Shown here piece after piece: positions 15,019 through 51,600 of a DNA stretch of 64,000 nucleotides. Positions within the stretch are counted from its first letter, which is position 1. Every line of letters starts with the position of its first letter. Made by a program: the position numbers and the translations under genes. The notes beneath the pieces were generated by a model. That model saw only the letters and a program-made list of their open reading frames with translations, searched no databases and was not told the origin of the DNA. Source of the DNA: Alphaproteobacteria bacterium (GTDB lineage Bacteria > Pseudomonadota > Alphaproteobacteria > Micavibrionales > UBA2020); the NCBI GenBank assembly GCA_027483355.1, contig JAIXUW010000292.1:138308-202307 (forward strand). The letters are read 5' to 3'.

Positions 15019-15888
15019 TTACTTTGTACACACAATAATTTCATCGGACTGAAATTCGGTCCTACACAAAGGACATTCGAGACTGGCGCTCTTGTTAACC
15101 AGTTCCTCCGTGCACGAATGACAAAGCACTTTGTGCCCGCAATGAAGTGGCATGATAAATGCTCTATTTGTCAGGCATACGACGCAGCCCTCTTCTTCAG
15201 ATTCGTCATCGTTCAACAATACGTCTTTGCTCTTGTCCGTTAGAGGCTTTTTGACAGGCTCTTTGAACGCGTCCGGGCCAGGTTGTTCGTATTCGGAATC
15301 GTCGTCATTATTATTCCCATCATCGTTGCTAGTCTGCTGTACCGTCCAAGGCCCCAATTGAATTTGCCCTTCTGTACTCGATGTTGAAAAGCCATCGGGA
15401 GAAAGATGGTGGTGTTGCGCGTTCGAGTCGAAAACAACCGACCCAATGCTGTTGGAACTGCCTTGTACTTGTACTCGTATAGGAGTGCTACCAAAAAAGT
15501 TGTGGATTGTTCCAATCTTGTTTCCGTTGTGAAGCTCGACCGAAGTGCCCCATGGTTCTTGTTTTACAACGAGGCCCTGTGGCGTGGATGAACTGTCGTT
15601 CAAACCCGCGGCAGCTAAACCTTTGTAGCGTTTGCCATATAACTGGGCTCTGAGAGCGTATAATTTGCCTCTCTCCACGTATAATTTGGATCGCGCGTCG
15701 TAGATTCGAGAACGCTTATCGTACGCTCTGGCTCTCAAATCATACAAACTTTGTCTCTTTGACAAATCTTTTTCTATGCTTGCCAATGTGGAATACGCGG
15801 CGGCTTCGTCACTCATTGCACCTGCATCATCGTTAAGAGCGCAAATTTGATTTTGCAAATCGTCCAGTTTTTTGACCACCTCCTCCAT
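15019..15888 (-). CDS. C-terminal RING (C3HC4) finger protein with heptad-repeat region (289 aa)
   Basis: CVVCLTNRAFIMPLHCGHKVLCHSCTEELVNKSASLECPLCR fits C-x2-C..C-x-H-x3-C-x2-C..C-x2-C. Six consecutive heptads x[LAI]YxxRx at aa 47-88. Its stop is 2 nt from the stop of the convergent BTB gene. Confidence 0.85.
   Translation of the reverse strand: MEEVVKKLDDLQNQICALNDDAGAMSDEAAAYSTLASIEKDLSKRQSLYDLRARAYDKRSRIYDARSKLYVERGKLYALRAQLYGKRYKGLAAAGLNDSSSTPQGLVVKQEPWGTSVELHNGNKIGTIHNFFGSTPIRVQVQGSSNSIGSVVFDSNAQHHHLSPDGFSTSSTEGQIQLGPWTVQQTSNDDGNNNDDDSEYEQPGPDAFKEPVKKPLTDKSKDVLLNDDESEEEGCVVCLTNRAFIMPLHCGHKVLCHSCTEELVNKSASLECPLCRTEFQSDEIIVCTK
15025..15030. terminator. palindromic TGTACA at a convergent gene junction
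   Basis: 9 nt after the stop of 13550..15016. It lies inside the last codons (CTK) of the RING gene. Confidence 0.3.
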
Positions 15889-16070: not shown

Positions 16071-17330
16071 ATGGAGCGCGACGACGACGACGCGATGGAG
16101 GTCGATGCTGATTTAGAACCTCAATACAATTGGGGGTTCACGATATCGAAAAAGAGCCATGGTTATTTAGCATATGCTGACTTGGCGGCGCAACAAAACT
16201 TTGATTTTGCGGAAAACTCGGCAAAATGCTTGTTCCTGGACTCAATCACGCAACCCGAGTGGAAAGACGCTTTACATTACATGAGTAGATCGGAATTTGC
16301 AATTGAGCGTCTTAACGAAGCCCGGAAATGGAAATTCGACTCGATCACGTTCAAGGGCGTTGTCGACGGCCGCTTCTTTGAATATATTCGCGCCTCGAAT
16401 CTGCTACATAAACTGGCACGCTTCAAATTCATGCAGCTCTTTATGTGCAAATTCGAGAATTTTACGACACTGCGGTTCGAATACTTTTTGGAGTTCCTTG
16501 GCGCAATTGGCCCTAAATCGCTATACGTGGCTGATCCACACGACGGATTGACTGTTTCTTCAGAGTCTTACGATTTTCTGCGCCATTTGTTCCGAGAAAA
16601 GCACCCTGGGCTCGAGGAATTCCGGTTAGACTACGTTATGGCCGATTTACCTACCACGGCGACTGTGGTTCTTCTAGATGTCATACAAGCGTGCACCAAT
16701 CTTAAATCGTTTCAAATCAACTCTCTGATCCCGGAAAATAGATCAAAGGGCAAAGTAGTGTACTCTAAATTCGCGCTGCGTCAGAATTGCGCAGCCATTC
16801 TCGACAATTTGCTTCAAAATGCATCTCTTGCACGATTGCGATTGCCAGCCTGGTTTTTTGAAGAAGCCAGCGTGCTAAACAAGATTGCGTCGATCCCTGA
16901 CCTGCTCAAATCGAGAAACTGCACGATAGAGCACTTGACCGTGTTCTGGAGCGCCAATGACCATTCTAAATTGGACTTTTCGCAACAAGCAATGTCATTT
17001 TCGCCCATTCGAGTACTTGTGCTCAAGGGAAACACGCTACCGGAACTGGTGTCAAGTGCCGCGTTCCAAAACGGGAATGCCTTGCCCTCTGCGATTCGAT
17101 ACAGTCTCAGATCGCTTCAGTATTTCAACACGCAAATGTCGTTAGATCTGCTGAACATGTATGTCAGCCCAGGAGCGGTTCCGGGCAAAATAAGCGTCGT
17201 CGAGATTTTTAGGCGCAAAAATTTGAAGTCTAAGAAATTTGTTGTCACGAAAAACAAAGTTAGAAAAATCGTGCGCGAAGACGGGCAGGATACGGATAGC
17301 GACAATCCGCCGCCTTCCCAGTACTTGTAA
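16071..17330 (+). CDS. LRR-like paralog family member B (419 aa)
   Basis: aaaaaaaaATG start. Leucine-rich, RNI-like periodicity: TNLKSFQINSL, LQNASLARLRLPAWF, IEHLTVFW, IRVLVLKGNTLPEL. Motifs shared with 1670..2956 and 19923..21107. Confidence 0.8.
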   Translation: MERDDDDAMEVDADLEPQYNWGFTISKKSHGYLAYADLAAQQNFDFAENSAKCLFLDSITQPEWKDALHYMSRSEFAIERLNEARKWKFDSITFKGVVDGRFFEYIRASNLLHKLARFKFMQLFMCKFENFTTLRFEYFLEFLGAIGPKSLYVADPHDGLTVSSESYDFLRHLFREKHPGLEEFRLDYVMADLPTTATVVLLDVIQACTNLKSFQINSLIPENRSKGKVVYSKFALRQNCAAILDNLLQNASLARLRLPAWFFEEASVLNKIASIPDLLKSRNCTIEHLTVFWSANDHSKLDFSQQAMSFSPIRVLVLKGNTLPELVSSAAFQNGNALPSAIRYSLRSLQYFNTQMSLDLLNMYVSPGAVPGKISVVEIFRRKNLKSKKFVVTKNKVRKIVREDGQDTDSDNPPPSQYL

Positions 17331-17595
17331 ATAAGCATAATGTAAAACCAAAACGCAAAAAGAGGTGATCGCGCCGCAAGATTGAGATATATTGGCAATA
17401 AACACATAGCGTAACGATTATACACACAATGTAAATTGCAAATGCCCGAGTTGTACGGTGTAAAACCTGAATGTACTGGGGTATATTGTAACAGATGTTC
17501 CATTTGAATAACGAAGAATCTCGCATGCTGTGCACCTCCGGAATACAGACCGGATTTGGGGCCTTTTGTACCGCCCGGGACCCAGCCAATTTTTT

Positions 17596-18276
17596 TTGTG
17601 GTCTCGCGCGTTTGCTTGGTATTTTGTCATCGCACTAAAAAAAATGTAAAAGGAAGCGTTGCCGTGCCTGCGATAATGATGCAATTGCGTGTAAATTAGC
17701 GCCATTCTACCCCCTGTTTCAATCTGTGGTTCCGGTTCTGATTTTATCACAAGTGCACCCGCGGGTGTCTGCAGCGTTCTGTGTGACGTGTACTCAACTA
17801 AACAATGCACTCACTGTCGTGTAGGCTCCAGGGCCAATAGAGAACACTGCAAAGCCGGCACCGCCGACTCGACGGACGCTTCCGATTTTCTTTTGCGGTC
17901 TCGCGCCGTTTTAAACCACCCTGGGCGTTGCGCGGAAAACATTGTGGTCTCGCGCGTTGGGTTGAAATTTTGCTAACATGTCCAAAAAATGCAAAAGAAG
18001 CGTTGCCAGCTTAACTATCAAAGTACCTTGCAGCTAGTCACACAGCGCCGCACCTAGGATTCTTACAGCTTCTGTAGTTCGCCGCAAGGCCTCTTTCCGT
18101 GTCTACACGACCAAAGAGACTTTGGATTTTTTGTACAATTCTTTCTTACAACGTATTTGCATACGAGGACAATGCACTACACGGGATGCTAGACCGGCAG
18201 ACGCTTCCAGTTTTGATTTCGGAATCGCCTCCTTTTGAACAAGCCTCGGCGGCGCGCAAAAACATTGTGGTTTCGC
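17596..18276. repeat. degenerate ~340-bp tandem duplication punctuated by GTGGTCTCGCGCG
   Basis: Unit A 17596-17663 vs 17942-18007 (TTGTGGTCTCGCGCGTT...AAAAAATG[TC]AAAAG.AAGCGTTGCC, about 75% identity by eye). Unit B 17875-17953 vs 18200-18276 (GACGCTTCC...AAAACATTGTGGT[CT]TCGC). A variant 13-mer lies at 17895, and an inverted GTCTCGCGCC at 19461-19470. Confidence 0.75.
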
Positions 18277-18330
18277 AGGAGTAGTCGCGGTTCAAGTTTT
18301 TTATGATATACACGAGAGCAGGAGACACGT

Positions 18331-18639
18331 TCACAAATTCTGTCTTGCAATCTCGACTTCTCTTGACACGAAATTGAGAAGGCGCGCGAGAGGAAGATTG
18401 CCACTGTTGGCCGCGTTCCCGTTGCCCAACAAAATGACGCGCTCTAACATGTTGTAGAACTCCTTGAGATCAACCTTGTCTTTGTCGCCTTCAATGACGT
18501 GGAGGCGGCACAGAAGCCTGTTGATGGCAGCGTAGACGTTGGCGTTTTTTTCGGAGCAAATGGTCACCGTCTTCACGTCGTCCTCCGTTTTTTCGGTAGA
18601 AGTCAGAGTGAACGAAAAGTTGTACGTCTTGTTCGACAT
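18331..18639 (-). CDS. hypothetical protein (102 aa)
   Basis: First ATG (gtgtacaATGtcg) of a track ORF that begins at TTG. Isolated between two repeat-rich non-coding islands. Confidence 0.55.
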   Translation of the reverse strand: MSNKTYNFSFTLTSTEKTEDDVKTVTICSEKNANVYAAINRLLCRLHVIEGDKDKVDLKEFYNMLERVILLGNGNAANSGNLPLARLLNFVSREVEIARQNL

Positions 18640-18832
18640 TGTACACAATGCTTTCTCTTGAATTGTTAGACAGTAGCGACTGAAAACAGGAACGAGAACC
18701 GCCGGTTCGCGCCGCCGGCATTTTTTTTTGCGCGCAACTTTTTTTGTACTCGCCGGATAAAAAAATTATGTGTGCGGCCGTGTGTTAAAACTTATTCTAC
18801 TTTACTCACTTCAATCTGCTACACATTCCATT

Positions 18833-19405
18833 ATGGAATCAACATTTCAACTTGTTGAACTCTGTTTCTCGGCGCTGGAAAAGAGCGAAGGCGACTGCGA
18901 CGCCGCCGCGACTGCTCTGTTCGAAGCTCACGGAGACAAATACGGCGATCAAAATAGTCTCAAACTTCTTGCGTACACTTTGAAAACGGGATCCTCGCGA
19001 TTAAATGAAGCCTTGAAGCCGAAACGGCGTTTCCGTCGCAAGGCGGCGCAAGTGGAGCGCGCTTTCCATTGCCCGGTCGGCAATTGTATCAAGAGCTACG
19101 GAGAACTCGGTGCATTGAGAAATCACATGAGGATCAAGCATCAAAGCGCGAGTAAGAAGTACGGAAACAACAATGTGCTCAAAAAGGCAAGCGACGAGGC
19201 TGCTTCGCGACATTCTAAGAGTGCAGTCACTGTGTCCAAAGATCCCGAGCCCGAGTGCAAAGAAACTCAAGTTCAACTGCCTCCTGTTCAGAACATAGAA
19301 CGGTTTCTTTTGGAGCATCCGCGAATGGTGTGGCCTGTTCCCTTTGTTCATTCGGGCATGGAATACTTTCCATTGGAGCATTATCGTCACCCGATGTATT
19401 GTTAG
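18833..19405 (+). CDS. C2H2 zinc-finger protein (190 aa)
   Basis: First ATG (MESTFQL) of a track ORF that begins at GTG. Single finger FHCPVGNCIKSYGELGALRNHMRIKH (C-x4-C-x12-H-x4-H). Confidence 0.65.
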   Translation: MESTFQLVELCFSALEKSEGDCDAAATALFEAHGDKYGDQNSLKLLAYTLKTGSSRLNEALKPKRRFRRKAAQVERAFHCPVGNCIKSYGELGALRNHMRIKHQSASKKYGNNNVLKKASDEAASRHSKSAVTVSKDPEPECKETQVQLPPVQNIERFLLEHPRMVWPVPFVHSGMEYFPLEHYRHPMYC

Positions 19406-19563
19406 CAATATATGTCATGATTTATTCTAACATTTCGGTGTTTTGAGAGCTACCACCAGCGGCGCGAGACTTGTGTGCGAAAAAAATGGCAACGCGTCTG
19501 CGCTCGTCGGTTTTGATCGGCGGATGTTTTGAAATTGACTACTATAGTTTTCTGAGTCCGTTT

Positions 19564-19753
19564 AATCGAAATTGAATTTGACCGTAAAGAAAATCGATAG
19601 CGCCATGTGCAACAGGCGCAAAAACAGCCAGGGTGTGGGTACGTGCCGGACAGCTAGTTTCTGAAAGACTTTCCGGTTACCAGTCGAACGAAACTGGGCG
19701 GCTGCTGCAGGTGTCGCTATCGATTTTCTTTTAGGACAAATTCGATTTGGATT
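19564..19753. repeat. ~190-bp imperfect palindrome (56-nt arms, 77-nt spacer)
   Basis: Left arm 19564-19619 (AATCGAAATTGAATTTGACCGTAAAGAAAATCGATAGCGCCATGTGCAACAGGCGC) matches the reverse complement of 19697-19753 at 46 of 56 positions. A third copy is at 41719-41764. Confidence 0.85.
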
Positions 19754-31153: not shown

Positions 31154-31837
31154 TCACTTGGCGATTGTAATATTTGGCTTGGTTTTCCAAAAAGCCTGAG
31201 CAATGGGAGTTTGAAGAACATGCCCAACCCTCTCGATTTTTGCCAATTTCAAAATTTCCGATCCAAATCCCATTCGTCTGGCTCTTCGAGCGACCCATAA
31301 AATGTCTGCTCTTTGATCGTCACGGCTCGATACGGATAGTAGAACTGGAAGATACAAAAATGGACTAGATCCTTTAACAAACACGCGGTCAGTCCCCTTT
31401 GTTCCGTTTTTAGGAGGTTTTTTGAGAATGAGTTGCAACGTAAAAAGGTCACCATTTTCGTAGGCGCTCAGCAAATGTTGTCGATCGTTCCAAAATCCAG
31501 ACCGGCGCCCAAACACGCGCTTCTGAATTTTGTATTCTCGGCGCAGTTCAGCCATGTAGATCCAAAACGTATGAGGGCTTTCAATGGGAACAAGAAGAAA
31601 CCGCTCCCAGTCGTCCATGCGTTGAATGTCGGCTAGAGGTGCAAACCACGCAATAGACTCTGCCATTACAGGATTCAGCTCGGCCCACTTGTAGTATTCG
31701 TCGGTAGAAACATTGGGATTTTCGAGGATATTGTCCCAAACGTCCTTTGCACTACGCGTCTCGCTTGCGAGAACTGGCCGCTTATACGGCACAATGTAAT
31801 CTGACAGTTTGGTTTCGCTACCCGACGAACGGCTCAT
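31154..31837 (-). CDS. hypothetical protein with GNAT-like C-terminal motif (227 aa)
   Basis: ILWVARRARRMGFGSEILKLAKIE fits GNAT motif A (R-x-x-G-x-G after a beta strand) and is followed by IAQAFWKTK. Weak call based on motifs only. Confidence 0.7.
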   Translation of the reverse strand: MSRSSGSETKLSDYIVPYKRPVLASETRSAKDVWDNILENPNVSTDEYYKWAELNPVMAESIAWFAPLADIQRMDDWERFLLVPIESPHTFWIYMAELRREYKIQKRVFGRRSGFWNDRQHLLSAYENGDLFTLQLILKKPPKNGTKGTDRVFVKGSSPFLYLPVLLSVSSRDDQRADILWVARRARRMGFGSEILKLAKIERVGHVLQTPIAQAFWKTKPNITIAK

Positions 31838-31897: not shown

Positions 31898-31909
31898 CCC
31901 CCCCCCCCC
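31898..31909. repeat. C12 homopolymer in a divergent promoter region
   Basis: gCCCCCCCCCCCCt between the divergent starts at 31837 (-) and 31979 (+). Confidence 0.9.
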
Positions 31910-31978: not shown

Positions 31979-32428
31979 ATGTCAGCTCCAGTTGCTGAAG
32001 TTACATTAGAAACGCAAAGGGATATTAGGCCTTCGACACAGCTATGTTTTGGCCCTGGGTACTACAAGAACGTCAGAATCAACGACAAGATTGCCGTGCC
32101 TCTTATTGCATGGTCTAGTAATGCGTGCTTGTCGTACAAACTGGGGTTTATTGAAGCTGACGGGCAAGTGAAGCTTAGATGGGATCCTCTCAAGCAGGAA
32201 ATGGGCGTCGAAGAGTCCGCTGTGACCACGGTTATCAATTCATATTCCAAGCCTGGGCCTGAGCCTCAACCTGAGCCGGAACAAGTGAAAAAGAAGATCA
32301 GCGTTCCCAAAAAGAAGAAGAAGGTGGTATCGACCAAGAAAAATGCCATTCCCGAAGCTGTTCCCAAGTTTTTGAAGGAGAAAAAGAAAAAAGCCAAGGC
32401 AGTAAATGCAAAAAAGGCGGGCATATGA
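31979..32428 (+). CDS. hypothetical protein with Lys-rich C-terminal tail (149 aa)
   Basis: ATG ORF. Tail: PEPQPEPEQVKKKISVPKKKKKVVSTKKN...KEKKKKAKAVNAKKAGI. Confidence 0.7.
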   Translation: MSAPVAEVTLETQRDIRPSTQLCFGPGYYKNVRINDKIAVPLIAWSSNACLSYKLGFIEADGQVKLRWDPLKQEMGVEESAVTTVINSYSKPGPEPQPEPEQVKKKISVPKKKKKVVSTKKNAIPEAVPKFLKEKKKKAKAVNAKKAGI

Positions 32429-38863: not shown

Positions 38864-39880
38864 ATGTACAGGCCAGGAGTCGTCGATTTATCTCAGGATA
38901 CCGATGCGGACAAGAAAAAGCTATATCCCTACGGGTTCTTTATTGAAGACGGACAAAGCAAAAGTCCGCCCACGGGCTTTCTCAACGACGATTATGTAAA
39001 ACTATTCGTCGCTATGCTGCAACACGGCCGTGAAATGGAAAGGACACTAGACAATATCGATTGTCAAAACGAAAGCTGGAAAGCCGGCAAGTATTTTAGT
39101 GATCTTATGCGAGGATACGAATGCGAAGTCGCTGTTTTGGATATTGAACAAGACAAACTGCCTTGGTCCTGGCTGAGATTCTGCAGCGCTTATAACGCAC
39201 CGCTGGACCTCAACATTCGGCCCATGTCCAACACGCCTTATATGTACGACAAGATAGGTATATTTCCCTCTCTAGGGGCCTCGATGCTTTTCAACTCTCC
39301 TGCGTCAGATTATAACAGGACCGTTTGCAAACAATTTGTGCAGCTGTGGCTACGAACGCGAAAGGCCAACGATTTTGGAATCAATGAGACGGGAGGTTAT
39401 TTTATGATATGTAAATGCATGCCTCTGGCGTTTATCGTTCACGGCGGCGACACGCTGCATTACAGTCTTCTTGTGACTATAGACGGACTCAAATGGTATC
39501 ATTTTGATTCTATCACACAAGGCTTGAACAATGGAGTTGCTGAAAGAGGCGTCGAATCACTGCGAAGGATGCTTTTGGAAGCGCGAAAAAATAACGCGCT
39601 GGAAGACGAGCCCGTGCCACGCGAATTTAGCGTGGTTCATATGAATCGGTTCTGGGACGCGGATCATACACCTGCTATTCAACCGGACGGTGTGAGCTGC
39701 CTGCTGTACAGCGTCGCCGTGTTGGATCTATTTTTGACGACGAATTTTGACTCGTTTCCCAATCTGCACGTGAACGACACAAAATGCATTCATGCGAATA
39801 TTCCGGCCATGCGTGAATTCTGTCTAGCAATTTACAGAGTTTCATGGGGCTACTTTAATCACGTCAGGCGCATTACGTGA
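38864..39880 (+). CDS. Ulp1/adenain-like (C48-type) cysteine protease (338 aa)
   Basis: The ordered catalytic pattern is HYSLLVTIDGLKWYHFDS (His..Asp), then about 60 aa, then IQPDGVSCLLY (Gln..Cys). The spacing is as in the Ulp1/SENP and adenovirus/NCLDV protease families. Confidence 0.7.
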   Translation: MYRPGVVDLSQDTDADKKKLYPYGFFIEDGQSKSPPTGFLNDDYVKLFVAMLQHGREMERTLDNIDCQNESWKAGKYFSDLMRGYECEVAVLDIEQDKLPWSWLRFCSAYNAPLDLNIRPMSNTPYMYDKIGIFPSLGASMLFNSPASDYNRTVCKQFVQLWLRTRKANDFGINETGGYFMICKCMPLAFIVHGGDTLHYSLLVTIDGLKWYHFDSITQGLNNGVAERGVESLRRMLLEARKNNALEDEPVPREFSVVHMNRFWDADHTPAIQPDGVSCLLYSVAVLDLFLTTNFDSFPNLHVNDTKCIHANIPAMREFCLAIYRVSWGYFNHVRRIT

Positions 39881-39887
39881 CAACCGG

Positions 39888-39910
39888 GCACGCGCGCGCG
39901 CGCGCGCGCA
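39888..39910. repeat. alternating purine-pyrimidine tract, (CG)9 core at 39891-39908
   Basis: gcaCGCGCGCGCGCGCGCGCGCGca, 8 nt after the protease gene stop. Confidence 0.9.
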
Positions 39911-41606: not shown

Positions 41607-41718
41607 ATGCAGCCGCGTTAGCGCGTGCAATGTAAAATGTAGTTAACCCGGCATGTATGATTCGGCGGATAAAACGAAATTGATTACAATTGTTTATATA
41701 ACACGTGTGACCTAATAT

Positions 41719-41764
41719 GAATTTGTCTTGAAAGAAAAACGATAGCGGCACCTGCAACAGCCGT
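41719..41764. repeat. third copy of the 19.6-kb palindrome arm
   Basis: GAATTTGTCTTGAAAGAAAAACGATAGCGGCACCTGCAACAGCCG is about 85% identical by eye to the arm sequence at 19564-19619 and 19697-19753. Confidence 0.8.
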
Positions 41765-41867
41765 GAAAAAAGTGAGCCGGTACCCTCCGCAGGTTTTGTA
41801 GTTTTCATAGACAGTTGGGGGCGAACACTCAGAGTCAGTTTGCTTGGCTATTGTACATGCCGTTATC

Positions 41868-45985: not shown

Positions 45986-48649
45986 ATGGAGAACCGGCTG
46001 CGTGCCAACGCTCCCGCGCTCTCTCCGCAAGAAATTATCGCGCAAACGGTTGCCGTAGCTACATCTAGAGTTGCTAGTGCACCAAGTCCCCAGGAGTTAA
46101 ACAATGCCTACGCTAATACGATCATGGAAATTGCCAATAACGGTCCTATTGCCGTTGCTTCAATGACAAGTGCACTTTCAGATGCCGATAGATTGAAATT
46201 AAGAGCTATGATATCAGGTCCCGTAGAAGGCTCGCCTGAATCTGTAGTGGAATCGGCAAAGAAGTTGAAAGAGCCCACCGCTACTATTCCGCTGGCATTT
46301 TTTTCGGGCGTCCGCGATAACGCCGCCGCGTTGCACACAAGTAGCATGTCCACATCTATTACTACTCATCATACATTGCAAAATGAAGCTCTTACATTAT
46401 GCGGTGCGCGACAAGACGCGAGCGCGGCGGCTGCACCCGGCGCGAAAAAGGTGAATAATGCAAGCAGAACTGCTCTTGCGTGGAGATATGGATCTGGAGG
46501 TCCAGCCGCTGAAAGAATTCATAAAAAGGCCATGACGGCGACAGATAAGAAATTAGTGCAGGGAACGACAACGGGCGCCGGAGCCGCCGTACCCGAATAT
46601 GAGATTCAGCCTCCTGCCGAAAAGCAAAGAAAAATGTCCGAGTTGAATCCCATGAAGATTTATACAACTGCGGTTCAGAAACTGAAGGACAACGAGCGGT
46701 TAGGATTCGCCGATATCACATCGACTCTTCCATCAGTGTCGTCCAAGCAATCTCAATTGGTGAGTCCTCACGACCCGCTCACGGGAATATCACACAACGT
46801 GGTTCGCCTGGATAGCGATCTTTTGAACTCCATGGTCACCAATACGGCTACTGTGAACACGACAAACAAGTTTTTGTCTCAGGCCATTGAAGACGCTGGC
46901 TACGCTCATGTGGAGCATATAGCTATGGATGTGGATGCCGCGGATAAGACCGCCGAGGACGCTCGAGCCGTCGCTACGCTTCCAAAGCAGCAAAAGTTTT
47001 CCCGAAAGCGCAAGGGAATGACTTCGATCGAGGACGACGACGTACCTATGTATTACCCGGGTATGGAGATTACTGGAACGACCAAAGTGACTGTGGATCC
47101 TACTATTTTGGAGAATCCCGATATCGCGGAGCGGAACAAAAAGGCGATTGCGAGAAAGGATTTGGTTCAAATGCAAAACGAAGACAGTGACGTACTGACA
47201 GCGCCATTTCGAAATTCCAGCGGTCCCGCCGGTCTGGTGCCCTACGTTCTTTCGCGTACTAATCTGGATACTGTCCGAACGGCCGTGTCCGCTATTGCCG
47301 ACGTGTTGAGCGTGCTCTTTTCGGGACATGTGGCGAACAACTACGTGGACGACGCCACGATCAAGCTCACTGGAATTTCCATTCAGGACGCTAAGTATTG
47401 TGCCGAGAAAAGGCATCCCGAGATCCCACTCGTTCAATTTCCTACTATTATGCGCAAACGAATGAGGAATCTGTTCGAAAACGACAATTTGTTCAAGGCG
47501 CTTGGACTCGAAAAGGACATTGAGACACGCCTTCGTGCTCAAGGGATCGATGGTCATGTCGGATACAATGTAGAGTCAGTGGACTATATTATGAGGGACA
47601 TTGGAATGAAATCCAATCACGCTGAGTCCGACAACATGCAAAGACTGGCCGCTGTTGCTCAGAGAGGAGCCATATTCGCCGCATTTGAAGAACAGCAAAA
47701 GAGACTTGCGAGCAAAGGTTATGATCACTATGGCAGTAAGAAAAAATGGCACGTGTCCGAGCAATTGGCGGCTGCCAAGGCGGAATCGGCTACCAAGTAC
47801 CCTGACATGGAAGTCGTGACAATGGCTCACATTACCAAGTATTGTATTGAGCATACGTTGGAGGATCTGAAAAGAACGGGAAAACGTTTGTGCAAGAACG
47901 GAGCGTCGTGTTGGTGTAAGCAAATCGCAAACACTCGCTATCCTCGAATGTTCAACGGGCCTCCGGCATTCCCCAAGGCAGCCGATGTCGACAAATCCAT
48001 TGCGGGGAACATACCTATGAATTTCATCACCAAGATATCTATGGATCAACACGTTTATTTCGGCACAGCGGCGCAGTGGTTCTCGAGACCCCAGCTCATG
48101 GCCAATCTCAATGCAGTTGCCGAATCCAATGCGCAGACTCGAGCCAACTTGGGGTTTGTCGGAGTAGAGTTCCTAACCCCAAAACAAGAACAGGAACTCG
48201 CTGAATGGTGGGCCCAGTTCAAAGATGACGAGATTTTCGGAATAAGCATAGATCCACGTCGCAATTTCAACCAGCTCTGCTACTTGTGCGAAATGTTCAG
48301 AGTCACATCGGAGCATGTCATGCATGTCAATCAGCGTGTTCCCGACGAAATGCAAAACGTGGACCCTAGAACACGAGACTACTTGCCGCTCAACACATTC
48401 CAAGTGCTCCATTCGATCCCTGGAGAGTACGACAAGGATGCCTTGATCGAGACGTCGATCGGCGCAGGCGTTTCGGGCAGCACTCGACTTCCATCAGGTC
48501 GAAGTCTCGTCGTGGGCCCCTTCCCCGAATTCAGATTGAGTAATTTCGAGCTCTCGGTCATATCCATTCCAAACGAGGACGGCGTTGAAACCACGCGTCG
48601 CATCGTCAAGCAACCCGGAATGGATTTTCGATTGTCCTCAGTAATGTAA
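45986..48649 (+). CDS. hypothetical protein (887 aa)
   Basis: gaaaaaaaATG start. Long ORF. No domain recognised. Confidence 0.85.
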   Translation: MENRLRANAPALSPQEIIAQTVAVATSRVASAPSPQELNNAYANTIMEIANNGPIAVASMTSALSDADRLKLRAMISGPVEGSPESVVESAKKLKEPTATIPLAFFSGVRDNAAALHTSSMSTSITTHHTLQNEALTLCGARQDASAAAAPGAKKVNNASRTALAWRYGSGGPAAERIHKKAMTATDKKLVQGTTTGAGAAVPEYEIQPPAEKQRKMSELNPMKIYTTAVQKLKDNERLGFADITSTLPSVSSKQSQLVSPHDPLTGISHNVVRLDSDLLNSMVTNTATVNTTNKFLSQAIEDAGYAHVEHIAMDVDAADKTAEDARAVATLPKQQKFSRKRKGMTSIEDDDVPMYYPGMEITGTTKVTVDPTILENPDIAERNKKAIARKDLVQMQNEDSDVLTAPFRNSSGPAGLVPYVLSRTNLDTVRTAVSAIADVLSVLFSGHVANNYVDDATIKLTGISIQDAKYCAEKRHPEIPLVQFPTIMRKRMRNLFENDNLFKALGLEKDIETRLRAQGIDGHVGYNVESVDYIMRDIGMKSNHAESDNMQRLAAVAQRGAIFAAFEEQQKRLASKGYDHYGSKKKWHVSEQLAAAKAESATKYPDMEVVTMAHITKYCIEHTLEDLKRTGKRLCKNGASCWCKQIANTRYPRMFNGPPAFPKAADVDKSIAGNIPMNFITKISMDQHVYFGTAAQWFSRPQLMANLNAVAESNAQTRANLGFVGVEFLTPKQEQELAEWWAQFKDDEIFGISIDPRRNFNQLCYLCEMFRVTSEHVMHVNQRVPDEMQNVDPRTRDYLPLNTFQVLHSIPGEYDKDALIETSIGAGVSGSTRLPSGRSLVVGPFPEFRLSNFELSVISIPNEDGVETTRRIVKQPGMDFRLSSVM

Positions 48650-48663
48650 ACACTTCATTTGGA

Positions 48664-51600
48664 ATGCGAAAGCTTTCCCTCTTTCATCATCCTAAACGAT
48701 CCAACAACTCGGCTGCGTTTGAGACGCGTGTCGGATCTCACTCGTGGCGGGCGCTGGCCATGAATGATGTGAAAGAAGGATACAAAGCCTTTCCGCTCCA
48801 CGATGCAAAGGCGCGATTGGCCAGACAGCAGGGTTGGTACGTCTGGTTGGCTCGCGCTCAAGTGTCCGGGCAAATCTCCACGCCTGATACGTGGATTGAT
48901 AAAACACGATATGTGTTAAGCGACATTGTCTGCAATTTGAACGATATTTCCGATACTACCTTCCGGGATCCTATTCCCACATCAATCACGGGTACGCTCA
49001 TGCCCTGGGATGCGCTAGCGACAGCGTGTCGCGCGTACATGATCGACGAAGAACAATTTGAGAATATACTACGTTTGGAAGAGTACAAGCCACTTGGATC
49101 CGTGATCGGAGTTGGCGAAACGGAATTGCAGCTGTCGGAGAGTGCAAACGCACCGCCCCTGGCATTACTGAGGAAATTTTTCATGCAAAAGCATGCAATA
49201 CCTCTTATCAATTACATAGAAAAAACGTCTATTGTGTCTCCAAGTCAAAGCAAGACTAAATACGCCTCGGCGCATTTGGACTTTGACAAGATTGAAGATG
49301 ACATGAGACAAAACTACCCTTATCCTTATATGGACCCGGGATCATGGAACATTAATCATTTCAAAGTTCCTACCTCTGTGTTCGAGCAAGAACCGTCCAT
49401 TGACGATCTTGTCATTTGGGAATCCGTTCTATGCCCTGTCATGTCCACATACAGATACTTGGAGAGTCTAGTACACAGCGTGAATCAGTGGCCGTCCTAT
49501 AGATACATTGGTCTTGAATACAACGCCGAGAATGACTCGTGGAAGGCTCCAGTCAACTACTCAAGGCAAAAGAAACTGGCCCCGATATCCCTATTGCAAT
49601 TGCAATATCAGTTTACGATTCCCGTGCCTCGATCGCTGCATGATTTACAGGGCGTAGACGAAATAGCTCTGTGCGACTTGTGGGTCAATGGATTTTCATG
49701 GATGGCAACTGTTCTATGGAGACTCTATCATTTGCACAGGTTGAAAGCTGTTGCCGTGAGACCCGACGACCGATGTCTGCTCCATGCCACTCAACTCGTG
49801 ATCGATTCTCATATCCCGCTCTACGCGTACAATGTGAAACACGGAACGTTTCATGACGCTTTCCATTTACAAAAGGTGCCCTTTTCGACATTTGACGGCC
49901 CCACGCCCAAATCCAAGCATCCGTTGGCACCTGCGGCTCTCAACGAGTACGGTGGAATTTACGGCAAGCCTAAGCGACACGAACATGTCAAATCGACTCA
50001 ATATCCACGAGTTTTCATGTTGTACCCAGGAATGACGCGCTGGCTAGTCACTGTCGAAGAATCGCCGTCTCTCATCCCGGCATTGAACATGAGCGGGTTC
50101 TTCTTCCGGTACTCGAGCGAGCATACGGCTATTCAAAACTGGGACGATCCTAAAACGGCATTTATTACTCTCATGGTCTCCAAAATGAGCCAATTCCGAA
50201 GTCGCTTGCGAGCCGACGATACTACGGCCAAGCATTGTTTTACAAAGCATCCTATTATGGCATCTATCTTGCTCAATTACAAACATATATTCGAACTGGG
50301 AAACACGCACGGAGAAAGCAAGAGGCCCGCGTTCCAAGATCGGATCAGACTCTGGTTGACTTACAAGGACCCCGAGACCGCTCCTAGAAGCATCGAATGG
50401 GTCGTCGATCATTGTTTTAGAGATTTCAGATACGCTACTCGATTTGCAATGCACGAAATGATGTGCTACTACATCAATCTGATTCCTGCGTTCAAGCAAT
50501 GCATGCTGTCTCATCCTCATCAGGGAGTCATGTACAAAGAGTGGATGACAACGGTCAAAAACGCAGCTCAGTTTCACAGGAATCGATTGGAAACGATTCC
50601 GCTTCTACCGGGAGCGCCCAAGTCGACGGTTATTCTCTACAATGATATTTTACTGTGCAGACTCTACAATGCGACGAACAAGCACTTGAATTTTTGCTGC
50701 CACTACGGCACGTTTAGCGATGTTCTCGAAACGTTTTTTCCCAAAGAGTATAGTTCTCTATTGTCACGCGTGGAAGTCACACTAAGAGCGTTTAGCAAAG
50801 ACCACGCCCCGGATACGGAATTGAAGAATCAGATCGAGGCCAAGTGCAATCAACTCAAGCAACTGGCCGAGCTTTCCAGGTCGCGTCACACAAGATTTGA
50901 CTACGATGACGATCTATTTGATTCAGAAAGCGGATTTAACGCGCTTGGAAACGCTGGCAATGGTTCAAATGGAAACGGCGGTAACGACGAAGATGACGAG
51001 GATGCCGCCCAAAAGGAGCACGCCGTGTTTGAACAGTTTCACGACGACACATTGTACACGAACGAAGGTGATATCGATTTAGATGTGCTGGCAGACATGC
51101 TCTTGACGTCTAATGAAGCTGGGAAATCCGGCCAGCCTGCTACTGCGGCGGCAGATTCGACGACTCCAAACCAGGCCGAGTCTTCAAGTTCATCAAAATC
51201 CGAGCAGACTGGGCCCGAACTGTATTGCTACTCCAAAGCCGAAATGCGTGCCATTCACCGCATTCTGTCAGACAACATTCTTCACATTCCAATTTTGGAT
51301 GATCCTGGAAACGAACATATATCCGAAATGTTCAATGCCATGGTGTGGACCACGCAGCGCTATCACGGAGCACGTCAGACTCTGCCACTCAAGCTCTTAC
51401 TCTTGTTCGGAATGAGTTTCCAAATGCTCATTCGCTTGTACATGATCTTTATCTACTATGAACAGGCTTTGCCGTACCACAGAATCAGTGGCATGATCAA
51501 GAGATTGATTCAAGACTACCCACAGGACTGCGCTCTCTTGTGGCGATATCTCCAGTTGCTCAAAATGTTCTCCACAGAGCAAGCCATTCTTTTGCCGGCT

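What the first reader, a model, noticed from the sequence alone, without database searches (positions are those of the whole stretch)
17596..18276. Degenerate ~340-bp tandem duplication punctuated by the 13-mer GTGGTCTCGCGCG in a 1-kb gene desert
Two subunits repeat with 325-346 bp spacing: A/A' at 17596 and 17942, and B/B' at 17875 and 18200. Each period starts at TTGTGGTCTCGCGCG, and a third decayed start (GTGGTTTCGCAGG) lies at 18267. A further ACAATGCACT.CAC match (17804 and 18169) shows that the whole unit was duplicated. An inverted GTCTCGCGCC plus GGCAACGC pair occurs at 19461-19493. The two small genes at 18331-19405 are therefore bracketed by related GC-rich motifs in opposite orientation. 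This could be a terminal- or internal-repeat remnant, a pair of promoter/insulator modules, or non-coding RNA genes.
Basis: seen in the sequence. Interest (0 to 1): 0.6.

Follow-up and report, generated by a model that had tools for sequence, protein, structure and literature searches.

The report
Locally amplified conserved non-coding viral element
The repeat is real: part of a roughly 160-base element that is also present in a distant relative of this uncharacterised large DNA virus has been copied several times in one gene-free kilobase, and it is most likely a local protein-binding (regulatory) DNA module, not an RNA gene or a genome-end remnant.

Summary
The anatomy differs from a clean 340-bp tandem duplication. 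A conserved two-part block (B then A, about 170-200 nt) occurs twice, with a decayed third A. A1 stands alone in front. The spacers between blocks cannot be aligned.

The main new result comes from L087, the only related genome stretch I could retrieve. It is syntenic over about 20 kb at 24-65% protein identity. L087 has no desert and no array. It does keep one copy of window 17495-17654, which is the sequence just before A1 plus A1 and includes the 13-mer region. This is the only fully non-genic DNA match in the synteny block. The array is therefore a lineage-specific amplification seeded from an old, locus-specific element.

I found no Rfam family, no stable fold, no coding signal in the repeats and no other copies in 64 kb. 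A 47-codon ORF overlaps the conserved element. Its frame is open in both genomes, but codon usage is non-coding-like and L087 lacks an in-frame ATG.

Best reading (about 0.4): a cis-acting protein-binding module beside a conserved zinc-finger gene. Moderate interest.

The parts
17495..17654 (+). Conserved element (the sequence before A1, plus A1). It is homologous to L087 9662-9824. Block I is 17498-17540 (..CGAAGAA..TCGC...CTGTGCACCTC). Block II is 17585-17630 (T-run, TTGTGGTCTCGCGCGTTT..TATTTT).
   Evidence: Local alignment scores 38 vs 13.3+-1.9 (0/300). It is the only fully non-genic DNA hit in the synteny block. Both blocks are reciprocal best hits in syntenic order: 22 against a next-best of 14-17.
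17495..17638 (+). Candidate 47-codon ORF (MFHLNNEESRMLCTSGIQTGFGAFCTARDPANFFCGLARLLGILSSH). The 13-mer encodes part of CGLAR. Status unresolved; probably not coding.
   Evidence: For coding: ungapped tblastx E=5e-7 against L087's 452-nt intergenic region and 2.5e-5 against the whole L087 locus; BLOSUM sum 67 vs 7-25 in the other five frames; 7 synonymous codon differences vs 0-4. Against coding: in-frame hexamer score -19.1, equal to the out-of-frame mean of -18.8, while real genes average +21; no in-frame ATG in L087; poor ATG context, rank 1855 of 2055; with the matched columns held fixed the score is not exceptional (p=0.12).
17596..17663 (+). A1: first copy of module A (TTGTGGTCTCGCGCGTT ... 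AAAAAAAATGTAAAAGGAAGCGTTGCC).
   Evidence: A1/A2 are 78% identical over 68 nt; local score 37 vs 9.7+-1.9.
17664..17801 (.). Spacer 1, not alignable to spacer 2.
   Evidence: z=-0.1 for middle vs middle. Only scattered collinear 6-mers. No similarity elsewhere in the window or L087.
17802..17941 (+). B1: module B. Its core at 17874-17911 (GACGCTTCCGATTTTCTTTTGCGGTCTCGCGCCGTTT) is itself a copy of the junction before A1 (17578-17613).
   Evidence: B1/B2 score 35 vs 9.7+-1.7. 17874-17911 vs 17578-17613 is 82% identical over 38 nt. The shared 10-mer lies at 17802/18169.
17942..18007 (+). A2: second copy of module A.
   Evidence: The degenerate motif derived from the orthologue, TTGTGGNNTCNCNCGTT, occurs only at A1 and A2 in the window (0.05 expected).
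18008..18168 (.). Spacer 2.
18169..18266 (+). B2: second, more decayed copy of module B.
18259..18331 (+). A3: decayed third copy of module A, running up to the stop codon of gene 18331-18639 (-).
   Evidence: 17840-18004 vs 18165-18331 is 66% identical over 172 nt, E=7e-11. A2/A3 score 21 vs 7.5+-1.4.
19460..19512 (-). Inverted partial copy of the B core (ACCGACGAGCGCAGACGCGTTGCCATTTTTTTCGCACACAAGTCTCGCGCCG), 55-107 nt past the stop of the zinc-finger gene.
   Evidence: Score against B1 is 18 vs 9.2+-1.6 (0/500); against the whole array 4/500 shuffles reach 18. In the tile scan with the B1 core it scores 18, the best tile outside the array, against a background maximum of 16.
16071..17330 (+). 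Left flanking gene (419 aa, no known domain). Its 3' end faces the desert. Orthologue of the L087 411-aa gene.
18331..18639 (-). Right flanking small gene (102 aa). Its 3' end faces the desert. Scores as coding. No homologue in L087.
18833..19405 (+). Gene for a 190-aa protein with a basic stretch plus a single C2H2-type zinc finger. Conserved at the same syntenic position in L087.
   Evidence: 283 homologues of the basic+finger core and two full-length relatives. Synteny. Pfam hits are only sub-threshold.

Best explanation
The array is a lineage-specific, partly decayed local amplification of one part (block II and its surroundings) of an old, locus-specific, probably non-coding DNA element. 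That element lies between the 419-aa gene and the zinc-finger gene.

Shown:
1. The copies are homologous. The B-A block and A1 are far above background, while the spacers are unrelated.
2. The founder copy (17495-17654) is conserved as two blocks at fixed spacing in a relative whose proteins are only 24-65% identical. In that relative it is single-copy and sits 177-339 nt upstream of the orthologous zinc-finger gene.
3. The relative has neither the desert nor the array.
4. The repeats have no coding signal, no stable RNA or DNA fold and no Rfam match.
5. The motif is confined to this locus in the 64 kb + 20 kb examined.

Inferred:
1. The conserved blocks are protein-binding sites of a cis-acting module. 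I favour a distal regulatory (enhancer/promoter-type) region of the zinc-finger gene neighbourhood.
2. Slippage or unequal recombination multiplied the block II site to five direct copies (two of them decayed) plus one inverted partial copy on the other side of the two small genes. This would raise the number of binding sites around those genes.
3. The binding protein is unknown. The adjacent basic+C2H2 protein is a candidate only because it is adjacent.
For: - Duplication statistics.
- Unrelated spacers.
- Synteny with L087 and absence of the array there.
- Conserved element: local score 38 vs 13.3+-1.9 (0/300); the only fully non-genic DNA hit in the synteny block; reciprocal best hits for both blocks.
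- Orthologue-derived motif TTGTGGNNTCNCNCGTT found only at A1 and A2 (expected 0.05) and once in L087.
- Non-coding character: hexamer scores, minus-strand peptides of B not conserved, no pseudogene fragments.
- No RNA signal.
- A2 and the B1 core keep the block II core at 78-82% identity although they lack block I, while the spacers are unalignable.
- The neighbouring gene encodes a basic + C2H2 finger protein conserved in synteny.
- Inverted partial copy beyond the zinc-finger gene.
Against: - No binding or expression data exist.
- Only one relative was available, so conservation rests on two sequences.
- In the window the founder copy is 1.2 kb from the zinc-finger ATG, with another gene in between, and the desert lies between convergent 3' ends. 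A simple promoter role therefore does not fit the window.
- The motif is not found upstream of any other gene, so it is not a general transcription-factor site.
- Two copies (B2 core, A3) have lost the core motif, so not every copy is constrained.
- The different identities of the copy pairs (82, 78, 66%) and the unrelated spacers can also be explained by several neutral partial duplications of different age.
- The conserved element has an open frame in both genomes with more synonymous differences than any other frame.
Confidence: 0.4

Rival explanations
1. Micro-gene plus debris. 17495-17638 is a real 47-codon gene conserved in the relative, and the 13-mer encodes part of Cys-Gly-Leu-Ala-Arg. 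A2, the B1 core, B2 and A3 are non-functional partial duplicates of its 3' half and 3' flank, left by successive slippage or recombination events and now decaying.
For: - The 44-codon alignment is ungapped, with tblastx E=5e-7 against L087's intergenic region and 2.5e-5 against the whole locus.
- The frame is stop-free in both genomes.
- BLOSUM sum is 67 vs 7-25 in the other frames.
- There are 7 synonymous differences vs 0-4, and a hydrophobic C-terminus is preserved.
- The stop codon is followed within 10 nt by AATGTAAAAG, which resembles the 3'-flank motif of genes in this genome.
- B2 and A3 are clearly decaying.
- The element is locus-specific, as a gene would be.
Against: - The in-frame hexamer score is -19.1, the same as out-of-frame DNA (-18.8+-9.2). 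No 144-nt in-frame window of 38 genes scores that low, and two held-out small genes score +14 and +9.
- L087 has a TAA directly before the aligned frame and no in-frame ATG; its ATG is displaced by 1 nt.
- The window ATG has a poor context, rank 1855 of 2055.
- With the matched columns fixed, the amino-acid score is not exceptional (p=0.12; p=0.06 jointly with being stop-free).
- No gene was called here in the public protein collection, and Pfam finds nothing.
Confidence: 0.22
2. Replication origin or hr-like element. The repeated motif would be an iteron for an initiator protein, with the A/T runs as the unwinding region, as in the non-coding repeat regions of baculo-, nima-, asco- and herpes-type viruses.
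For: - The region is non-coding, carries repeated direct and inverted motifs with T8/A8 runs, and lies in an otherwise compact genome.
- It is locus-specific and conserved in a relative.
- It sits in a 2.7-kb low-coding island that also holds a very stable 190-nt palindrome at 19564-19753 (z=-8.25).
- A gene for a DNA-binding-type protein is adjacent.
Against: - The units contain no palindrome, and the copies fold no better than shuffles.
- No second homologous region exists in 64 kb.
- The other desert (58.1-58.5 kb) carries a different, more iteron-like motif.
- The relative has a single copy and no palindrome.
- No replication genes were recognised nearby.
Confidence: 0.12
3. Each unit is a small non-coding RNA gene, or a promoter plus a variable transcript.
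For: - Each A module carries an A-run + ATG context like the genome's gene starts (rank 15 and 61 of 2055 ATGs).
- The ends of each unit are conserved while the body varies.
Against: - No Rfam family reaches even E<=10 inside the array, and none reaches the gathering score anywhere in the window. There are no tRNAs.
- Fold z-scores run from -1.5 to +2.1 for all copies on both strands and about 0 for the conserved element in both genomes.
- The two-sequence consensus folds are weak, -12 and -7 kcal/mol over 196 columns.
- The ORFs after the A-run ATGs are 0 and 22 codons.
Confidence: 0.06
4. Remnant of a terminal or internal genome repeat, or the inverted ends of a mobile cassette carrying the two small genes (B2 ... 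inverted B core).
For: - The B2 core (+) and the inverted B core (-) flank genes 18331-18639 and 18833-19405.
- The 102-aa gene and the array are absent from the relative, as expected for an insertion.
Against: - The zinc-finger gene inside the supposed cassette is ancestral and syntenic.
- The inverted match is short and only marginally above background.
- There is no transposase or integrase domain and no other copies in the window.
- The locus is internal to a long synteny block.
Confidence: 0.05

Closest known systems
Homologous regions (hrs) of baculoviruses, nudiviruses and nimaviruses (compared from general knowledge)
   Same: Non-coding stretch in a compact large dsDNA virus genome, built of repeated units a few hundred bp or less. 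Copies occur in direct and inverted orientation, and the presumed role is as a cis-acting protein-binding DNA.
   Different: The units have no imperfect palindrome. There are only 2-3 units, with unrelated spacers. No second homologous region exists in 64 kb, and the other desert carries a different motif. A distant relative has a single copy.
Clusters of repeated binding sites in viral promoters, enhancers or origins (iteron-like arrays)
   Same: A short conserved core (TTGTGG..TC.C.CGTT after a T-run) is repeated five times in direct and once in inverted orientation within 2 kb, next to a gene for a DNA-binding-type protein. The core is conserved in a relative.
   Different: Spacing is irregular (about 49 and about 280-300 nt). 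Two copies are decayed. No binding protein is known, and the location is between convergent 3' ends.
Tandem segmental duplications in large DNA viruses (for example poxvirus gene 'accordions')
   Same: Head-to-tail local copy-number gain by recombination or slippage, specific to one lineage.
   Different: No gene is amplified. The copies are old (66-82% identity), partial and nested rather than clean full-unit repeats.
Unannotated small ORFs (micro-proteins) of large DNA viruses
   Same: A 47-codon frame is open in two distant relatives, with frame-specific similarity.
   Different: Codon usage is non-coding-like, the relative has no in-frame start, and the extra copies cannot encode the protein.

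Membership tests
Tandem repeat array (as detected by Tandem Repeats Finder) | Head-to-tail copies alignable over the whole period | tested here: not met
   TRF at minimum score 30 finds nothing in 16-21 kb except an 8-mer doublet. The middles of the units are unalignable. Only the A and B modules repeat.
Baculovirus/nimavirus-type homologous region (hr) | Each repeat unit contains an imperfect palindrome | tested here: not met
   No inverted repeat within units beyond 7-8 nt (GAAGCGT/ACGCTTC). Fold z-scores are -1.5 to +2.1.
Baculovirus/nimavirus-type homologous region (hr) | Several homologous copies dispersed around the genome | tested here: inconclusive
   No other copy in the 64-kb window. 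The remaining ~228 kb of the source contig was not available.
Baculovirus/nimavirus-type homologous region (hr) | Origin and/or enhancer activity | not testable with these tools
   Needs replication or reporter assays.
Structured non-coding RNA (any Rfam family) | Match to a covariance model, or a fold more stable than shuffles with covariation | tested here: not met
Protein-coding small gene (ORF 17495-17638) | Open frame conserved in relatives, with frame-specific substitution pattern | tested here: inconclusive
   Open in both genomes. BLOSUM 67 vs <=25 and 7 synonymous differences vs <=4. With matched columns fixed, p=0.12. Only two sequences.
Protein-coding small gene (ORF 17495-17638) | Start codon in relatives, and codon usage like the genome's genes | tested here: not met
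   No in-frame ATG in L087. Hexamer score -19.1 vs +21.2+-7.6 for genes. Poor start context.
Terminal or internal genome repeat | A copy at a genome end or at a second distant locus | tested here: inconclusive
   The locus is internal to a 20-kb synteny block, and the array is absent from the relative. The genome ends of the source were not available.
MITE or transposon-type mobile element | Terminal inverted repeats with target-site duplication, and multiple dispersed copies | tested here: not met
   Only 7-13-nt imperfect inverted ends. No copies elsewhere in the window, L087 or the public scans.
General promoter motif of this genome | Motif enriched upstream of many genes | tested here: not met
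   Upstream regions are enriched for A-runs and TCAGT, not for GGTCTCGCGC. One-mismatch matches outside the locus are at chance level.

The most novel reading that the evidence does not exclude
A locus-specific cis-element that is unique in each genome, conserved across a deep split in an uncharacterised clade of large, orphan-gene-rich DNA viruses, and bound by the neighbouring basic+C2H2 protein. In one lineage it would have been amplified into a multi-site array flanking that protein's own gene. That would make it an autoregulatory module, or an origin with its initiator, caught in the act of expanding.
Probability: 0.12. Interest if true: 0.55.

Novelty: new member of a known kind. Interest (0 to 1): 0.35.

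Why it matters
The host genome belongs to a large DNA virus-like lineage in which almost every protein lacks a known family and only two fragmentary relatives turned up in public assemblies. In such genomes, conserved non-coding DNA is one of the few handles on regulation or replication.

This work shows that the first repeat copy is part of the only non-genic sequence conserved across 20 kb of synteny. That gives a concrete 17-mer (TTGTGGTCTCGCGCGTT), a two-block element and a candidate partner protein to test. It also warns that a visually striking "punctuating" motif can be an inherited piece of an older element rather than a repeat boundary signal. If the element proves neutral or coding, the array is ordinary duplication debris.

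Tried and rejected
- Tandem Repeats Finder found nothing.
- Rfam at E<=10 over the locus and at gathering score over the window, plus ARAGORN, found nothing in the array.
- RNA folds of all copies on both strands, of the conserved element in both genomes, and two-sequence consensus folds gave no signal.
- Coding tests on the repeats were negative: small ORFs, hexamer scan, minus-strand peptides spanning B (not similar, 177/2000 shuffles), and tblastx of the desert against the window (no hits).
- Spacers were compared with the 102-aa gene and with L087. No similarity.
- A putative B copy before A1 (B0) was not significant. A B-like piece in the divergent promoter 18640-18832 was weak (19/500).
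- Public pattern scans returned only matches that do not extend beyond the pattern: the 17-mer in IMG/VR and GTDB genomes, and two-block patterns in IMG/VR and JGI metagenomes (checked in 64, 66). The 22-base block I pattern gave no hit in IMG/VR.
- Protein-based locus searches in IMG/VR with the SET protein and the zinc-finger alignment found none.
- Organism identification failed. The proteins match only an unnamed NCBI contig of 292,368 bp. Pfam finds only RING, SET/MYND, BTB and RabGAP-TBC domains. PDB sequence searches were empty. Run accessions and the genome length were not found in the literature library.
- One protein search was wasted on a concatenated query that returned only a self hit.
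- Logan contigs of the same virus (L027, L028) are 100% identical but do not cover the array. ORFs in the desert are not in the protein collection.
- From memory only and not tested: the core resembles half of the TCTCGCGAGA promoter palindrome and E2F-like TTT(C/G)GCGC sites. I give these no weight.

Full report
CONTEXT

The window is a compact genome that looks like a large dsDNA virus of eukaryotes.
- ATG-initiated ORFs lie on both strands, with gaps mostly 30-240 nt and about 48% GC.
- Of about 40 proteins scanned, only four have Pfam domains: RING, SET+MYND, BTB and RabGAP-TBC.
- The proteins match exactly one unnamed NCBI contig of 292,368 bp, plus short Logan contigs from runs SRR16126875/78 that are 100% identical in DNA.
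- I could not name the organism.
- Gene starts are typically preceded by A-runs. Gene 3' flanks are strongly enriched for TGTACA/TGTATA/ATGTA.

The interval 17331-18330 is an ORF-free kilobase between the 3' ends of two convergent genes: 16071-17330 (+) and 18331-18639 (-). It is the second-largest gap in the window. A hexamer model scores it as non-coding, and the same model correctly scores the two held-out small genes to its right as coding.

THE OBSERVATION

Alignment against dinucleotide-preserving shuffles:
- Unit 17596-17941 vs unit 17942-18266: global score 62 vs 8.8+-2.8.
- A1/A2 37 vs 9.7+-1.9, B1/B2 35 vs 9.7+-1.7, A2/A3 21 vs 7.5+-1.4, each 0/500.
- A sensitive blastn shows that the repeated entity is a contiguous B-A block: 17840-18004 matches 18165-18331 at 66% over 172 nt, E=7e-11.
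- The third A copy runs up to the stop codon of the 102-aa gene.
- The unit middles are not alignable (z=-0.1). Only a shared 10-mer (17802/18169) and a few collinear 6-mers remain.

The B core (17874-17911) is itself an 82% copy of the junction just before A1 (17578-17613). The locus therefore holds five direct copies of one core, a T-run followed by G(T/C)GGTCTCGCGC and GTT. They lie near 17590, 17887, 17938, 18212 (decayed) and 18261 (decayed).

The exact 13-mer and the exact 10-mer GGTCTCGCGC occur nowhere else in 64 kb. One-mismatch matches elsewhere are at chance level.

An inverted partial copy of the B core lies at 19460-19512, just beyond the zinc-finger gene. Against B1 it scores 18 vs 9.2+-1.6 (0/500), and against the whole array 4/500 shuffles reach 18. 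In a tile scan of the window with the B1 core it is the best tile outside the array, 18 against a background maximum of 16. The "bracketing" is therefore real as a description but only marginal statistically.

WHAT THE ARRAY IS NOT

- Not a known RNA. No Rfam match lies inside the array even at E<=10, none reaches the gathering score in the window, and there are no tRNAs.
- Not a stably folding strand. All copies on both strands have z from -1.5 to +2.1.
- Not coding in the repeats. Hexamer scores are low. ORFs behind the gene-start-like A-run+ATG of A1 and A2 are 0 and 22 codons. The minus-strand ORFs spanning B1 and B2 are not similar as peptides. There are no pseudogene fragments.
- Not a general promoter motif.
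- Not found in IMG/VR, GTDB genomes or JGI metagenomes. All pattern hits fail to extend beyond the pattern.

THE COMPARATIVE RESULT

An exhaustive HMMER search with the 190-aa protein of gene 18833-19405 found 283 proteins sharing its basic stretch plus a single C2H2-type finger. It also found two full-length relatives at 29-32% identity.

One of them lies on a 33-kb Logan contig from run SRR11430616, held here as locus L087. L087 is syntenic with window 8284-28397, gene for gene, at 24-65% protein identity and the same G+C content.

At the position of the desert, L087 differs in these ways:
- It has 24 nt, then an unrelated 170-aa minus-strand gene.
- A 452-nt intergenic region follows, and then the zinc-finger gene.
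- It has no array, no GGTCTCGCGC, no 102-aa gene and no palindrome region.

Yet window 17495-17654, which is the 100 nt before A1 plus most of A1, aligns to L087 9662-9824 with a score of 38 vs 13.3+-1.9 (0/300). Among all DNA-level hits between the two loci, this is the only one lying wholly outside genes.

The aligned element consists of two blocks: I (17498-17540) and II (17585-17630, containing the 13-mer region). Each block is a reciprocal best hit, and they occur in the same order. The degenerate consensus TTGTGGNNTCNCNCGTT occurs once in L087 and only at A1 and A2 in the window. B1, B2 and A2 on their own do not match L087 beyond block II.

Three conclusions follow:
- The array is a lineage-specific amplification.
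- Its founder is an old element.
- The 13-mer is an inherited piece of that element rather than a repeat-boundary signal.

IS THE CONSERVED ELEMENT CODING?

In ungapped register the two sequences share a frame that is stop-free in both genomes. In the window this frame is ORF 17495-17638 (47 codons).

For coding:
- tblastx gives E=5e-7 against L087's 452-nt intergenic region and 2.5e-5 against the whole locus.
- BLOSUM sum is 67 vs 7-25 in the other five frames.
- There are 7 synonymous codon differences vs 0-4 in the other frames.

Against coding:
- The in-frame hexamer score is -19.1. That is indistinguishable from out-of-frame DNA and far below every in-frame window of real genes.
- L087 has a stop immediately before the aligned frame and no in-frame ATG.
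- The window ATG has a poor context.
- With the matched columns held fixed, the amino-acid score is unexceptional (p=0.12).

With two sequences this cannot be settled. I put coding at about 0.2.

MECHANISM

I favour a cis-acting, protein-binding DNA module (confidence 0.4).
- Shown: conservation, locus specificity, non-coding character, lineage-specific multiplication, and adjacency to a conserved zinc-finger gene. In L087 the element sits 177-339 nt upstream of that gene.
- Inferred: that the blocks are binding sites, that amplification adds sites around the two small genes, and that the role is regulatory rather than in replication.

A2 and the B1 core lack block I, so they cannot encode the putative peptide. 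They nevertheless keep the block II core at 78-82% identity while the neighbouring spacers are unalignable. This fits constraint on the DNA motif. It can also be explained by nested partial duplications of different ages, and the decay of the B2 core and A3 shows that not all copies are maintained.

An origin or hr-like role is a live rival. The locus lies in a 2.7-kb low-coding island with T8/A8 runs and a very stable palindrome. However, the units lack palindromes and no homologous second region exists in the window.

VERDICT

The tandem-duplication description needs amending to a repeated B-A block with unrelated spacers, seeded from a conserved element. The RNA-gene and terminal-repeat readings are not supported. 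The regulatory reading is plausible but unproven. This is a new example of a familiar kind of feature, a lineage-specific intergenic repeat built on a cis-element, in an uncharacterised virus lineage. Interest is moderate.

Noticed in passing
window 58130-58460 (inside the ORF-free gap 57913-59319): Dense cluster of TAACGTAAC / GTTACGTTA motifs in direct and inverted groups. All 9 exact AACGTAAC/GTTACGTT sites in the window lie at 58143-58431. There is a perfect 16-nt inverted pair at 58157-58172 / 58438-58453. The cluster looks like iterons or an origin- or enhancer-type site cluster, and its motif differs from the one in the finding.
   Followed up: partly
window 19564-19753; second partial copy at 41655-41775: A 190-nt near-palindrome with 56-nt arms (82% complementary, 78-nt loop) and a DNA fold z of -8.25. 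A related partial copy lies between genes at 41.66-41.77 kb (70% over 111 nt, E=2e-13; 89% over 45 nt on the other strand). This makes it a dispersed, MITE-like repeat family. It is absent from L087. Both arms carry the exact 11-mer CGATTTTCTTT, which otherwise occurs only in B1.
   Followed up: partly
whole window, gene flanks: Gene 3' flanks are strongly enriched for TGTACA, TGTATA and ATGTA (for example TGTACA in 12 of 42 flanks vs 1.5 expected), including between convergent genes. Start codons are commonly preceded by A-runs, and TCAGT is enriched upstream (8 vs 2.4). These are probable 3'-end and start signals of this virus.
   Followed up: partly
window 17295-17334 vs L087 8976-9015: The last ~12 codons of the 419-aa gene (..DSDNPPPSQY, stop) are 82% identical at DNA level to the orthologue, although the proteins are only 24% identical overall. 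This looks like a sharply conserved C-terminal motif or an overlapping signal.
   Followed up: no
window 15019-15888, 18331-18639; L087 9036-9548: Small genes turn over within otherwise strict synteny. The RING-finger gene and the 102-aa gene of the window have no counterpart in L087, and L087's 170-aa gene has none in the window.
   Followed up: partly
window 18833-19405: The 190-aa protein belongs to a widespread family defined by a basic stretch plus one C2H2-type finger (K/RRRxRRKAxxxERxFxCPxxxCxKxYGSxxALKNHxxxKH). The family has 283 hits in 1.8 billion representatives and is below Pfam thresholds. Two full-length viral-type relatives also share the N-terminal AHGD and C-terminal LEHPRM motifs.
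   Followed up: partly
window 31898-31909 and 39891-39909: A C12 homopolymer lies between the divergent genes 31154-31837 (-) and 31979-32428 (+). A (CG)9 run lies just after gene 38864-39880.
   Followed up: no
L026 (Logan ERR3589585) vs window 45986-54139: A closer relative exists (69% identity over the 1535-aa protein), but only as a 6.6-kb contig that does not reach the locus of interest.
   Followed up: partly
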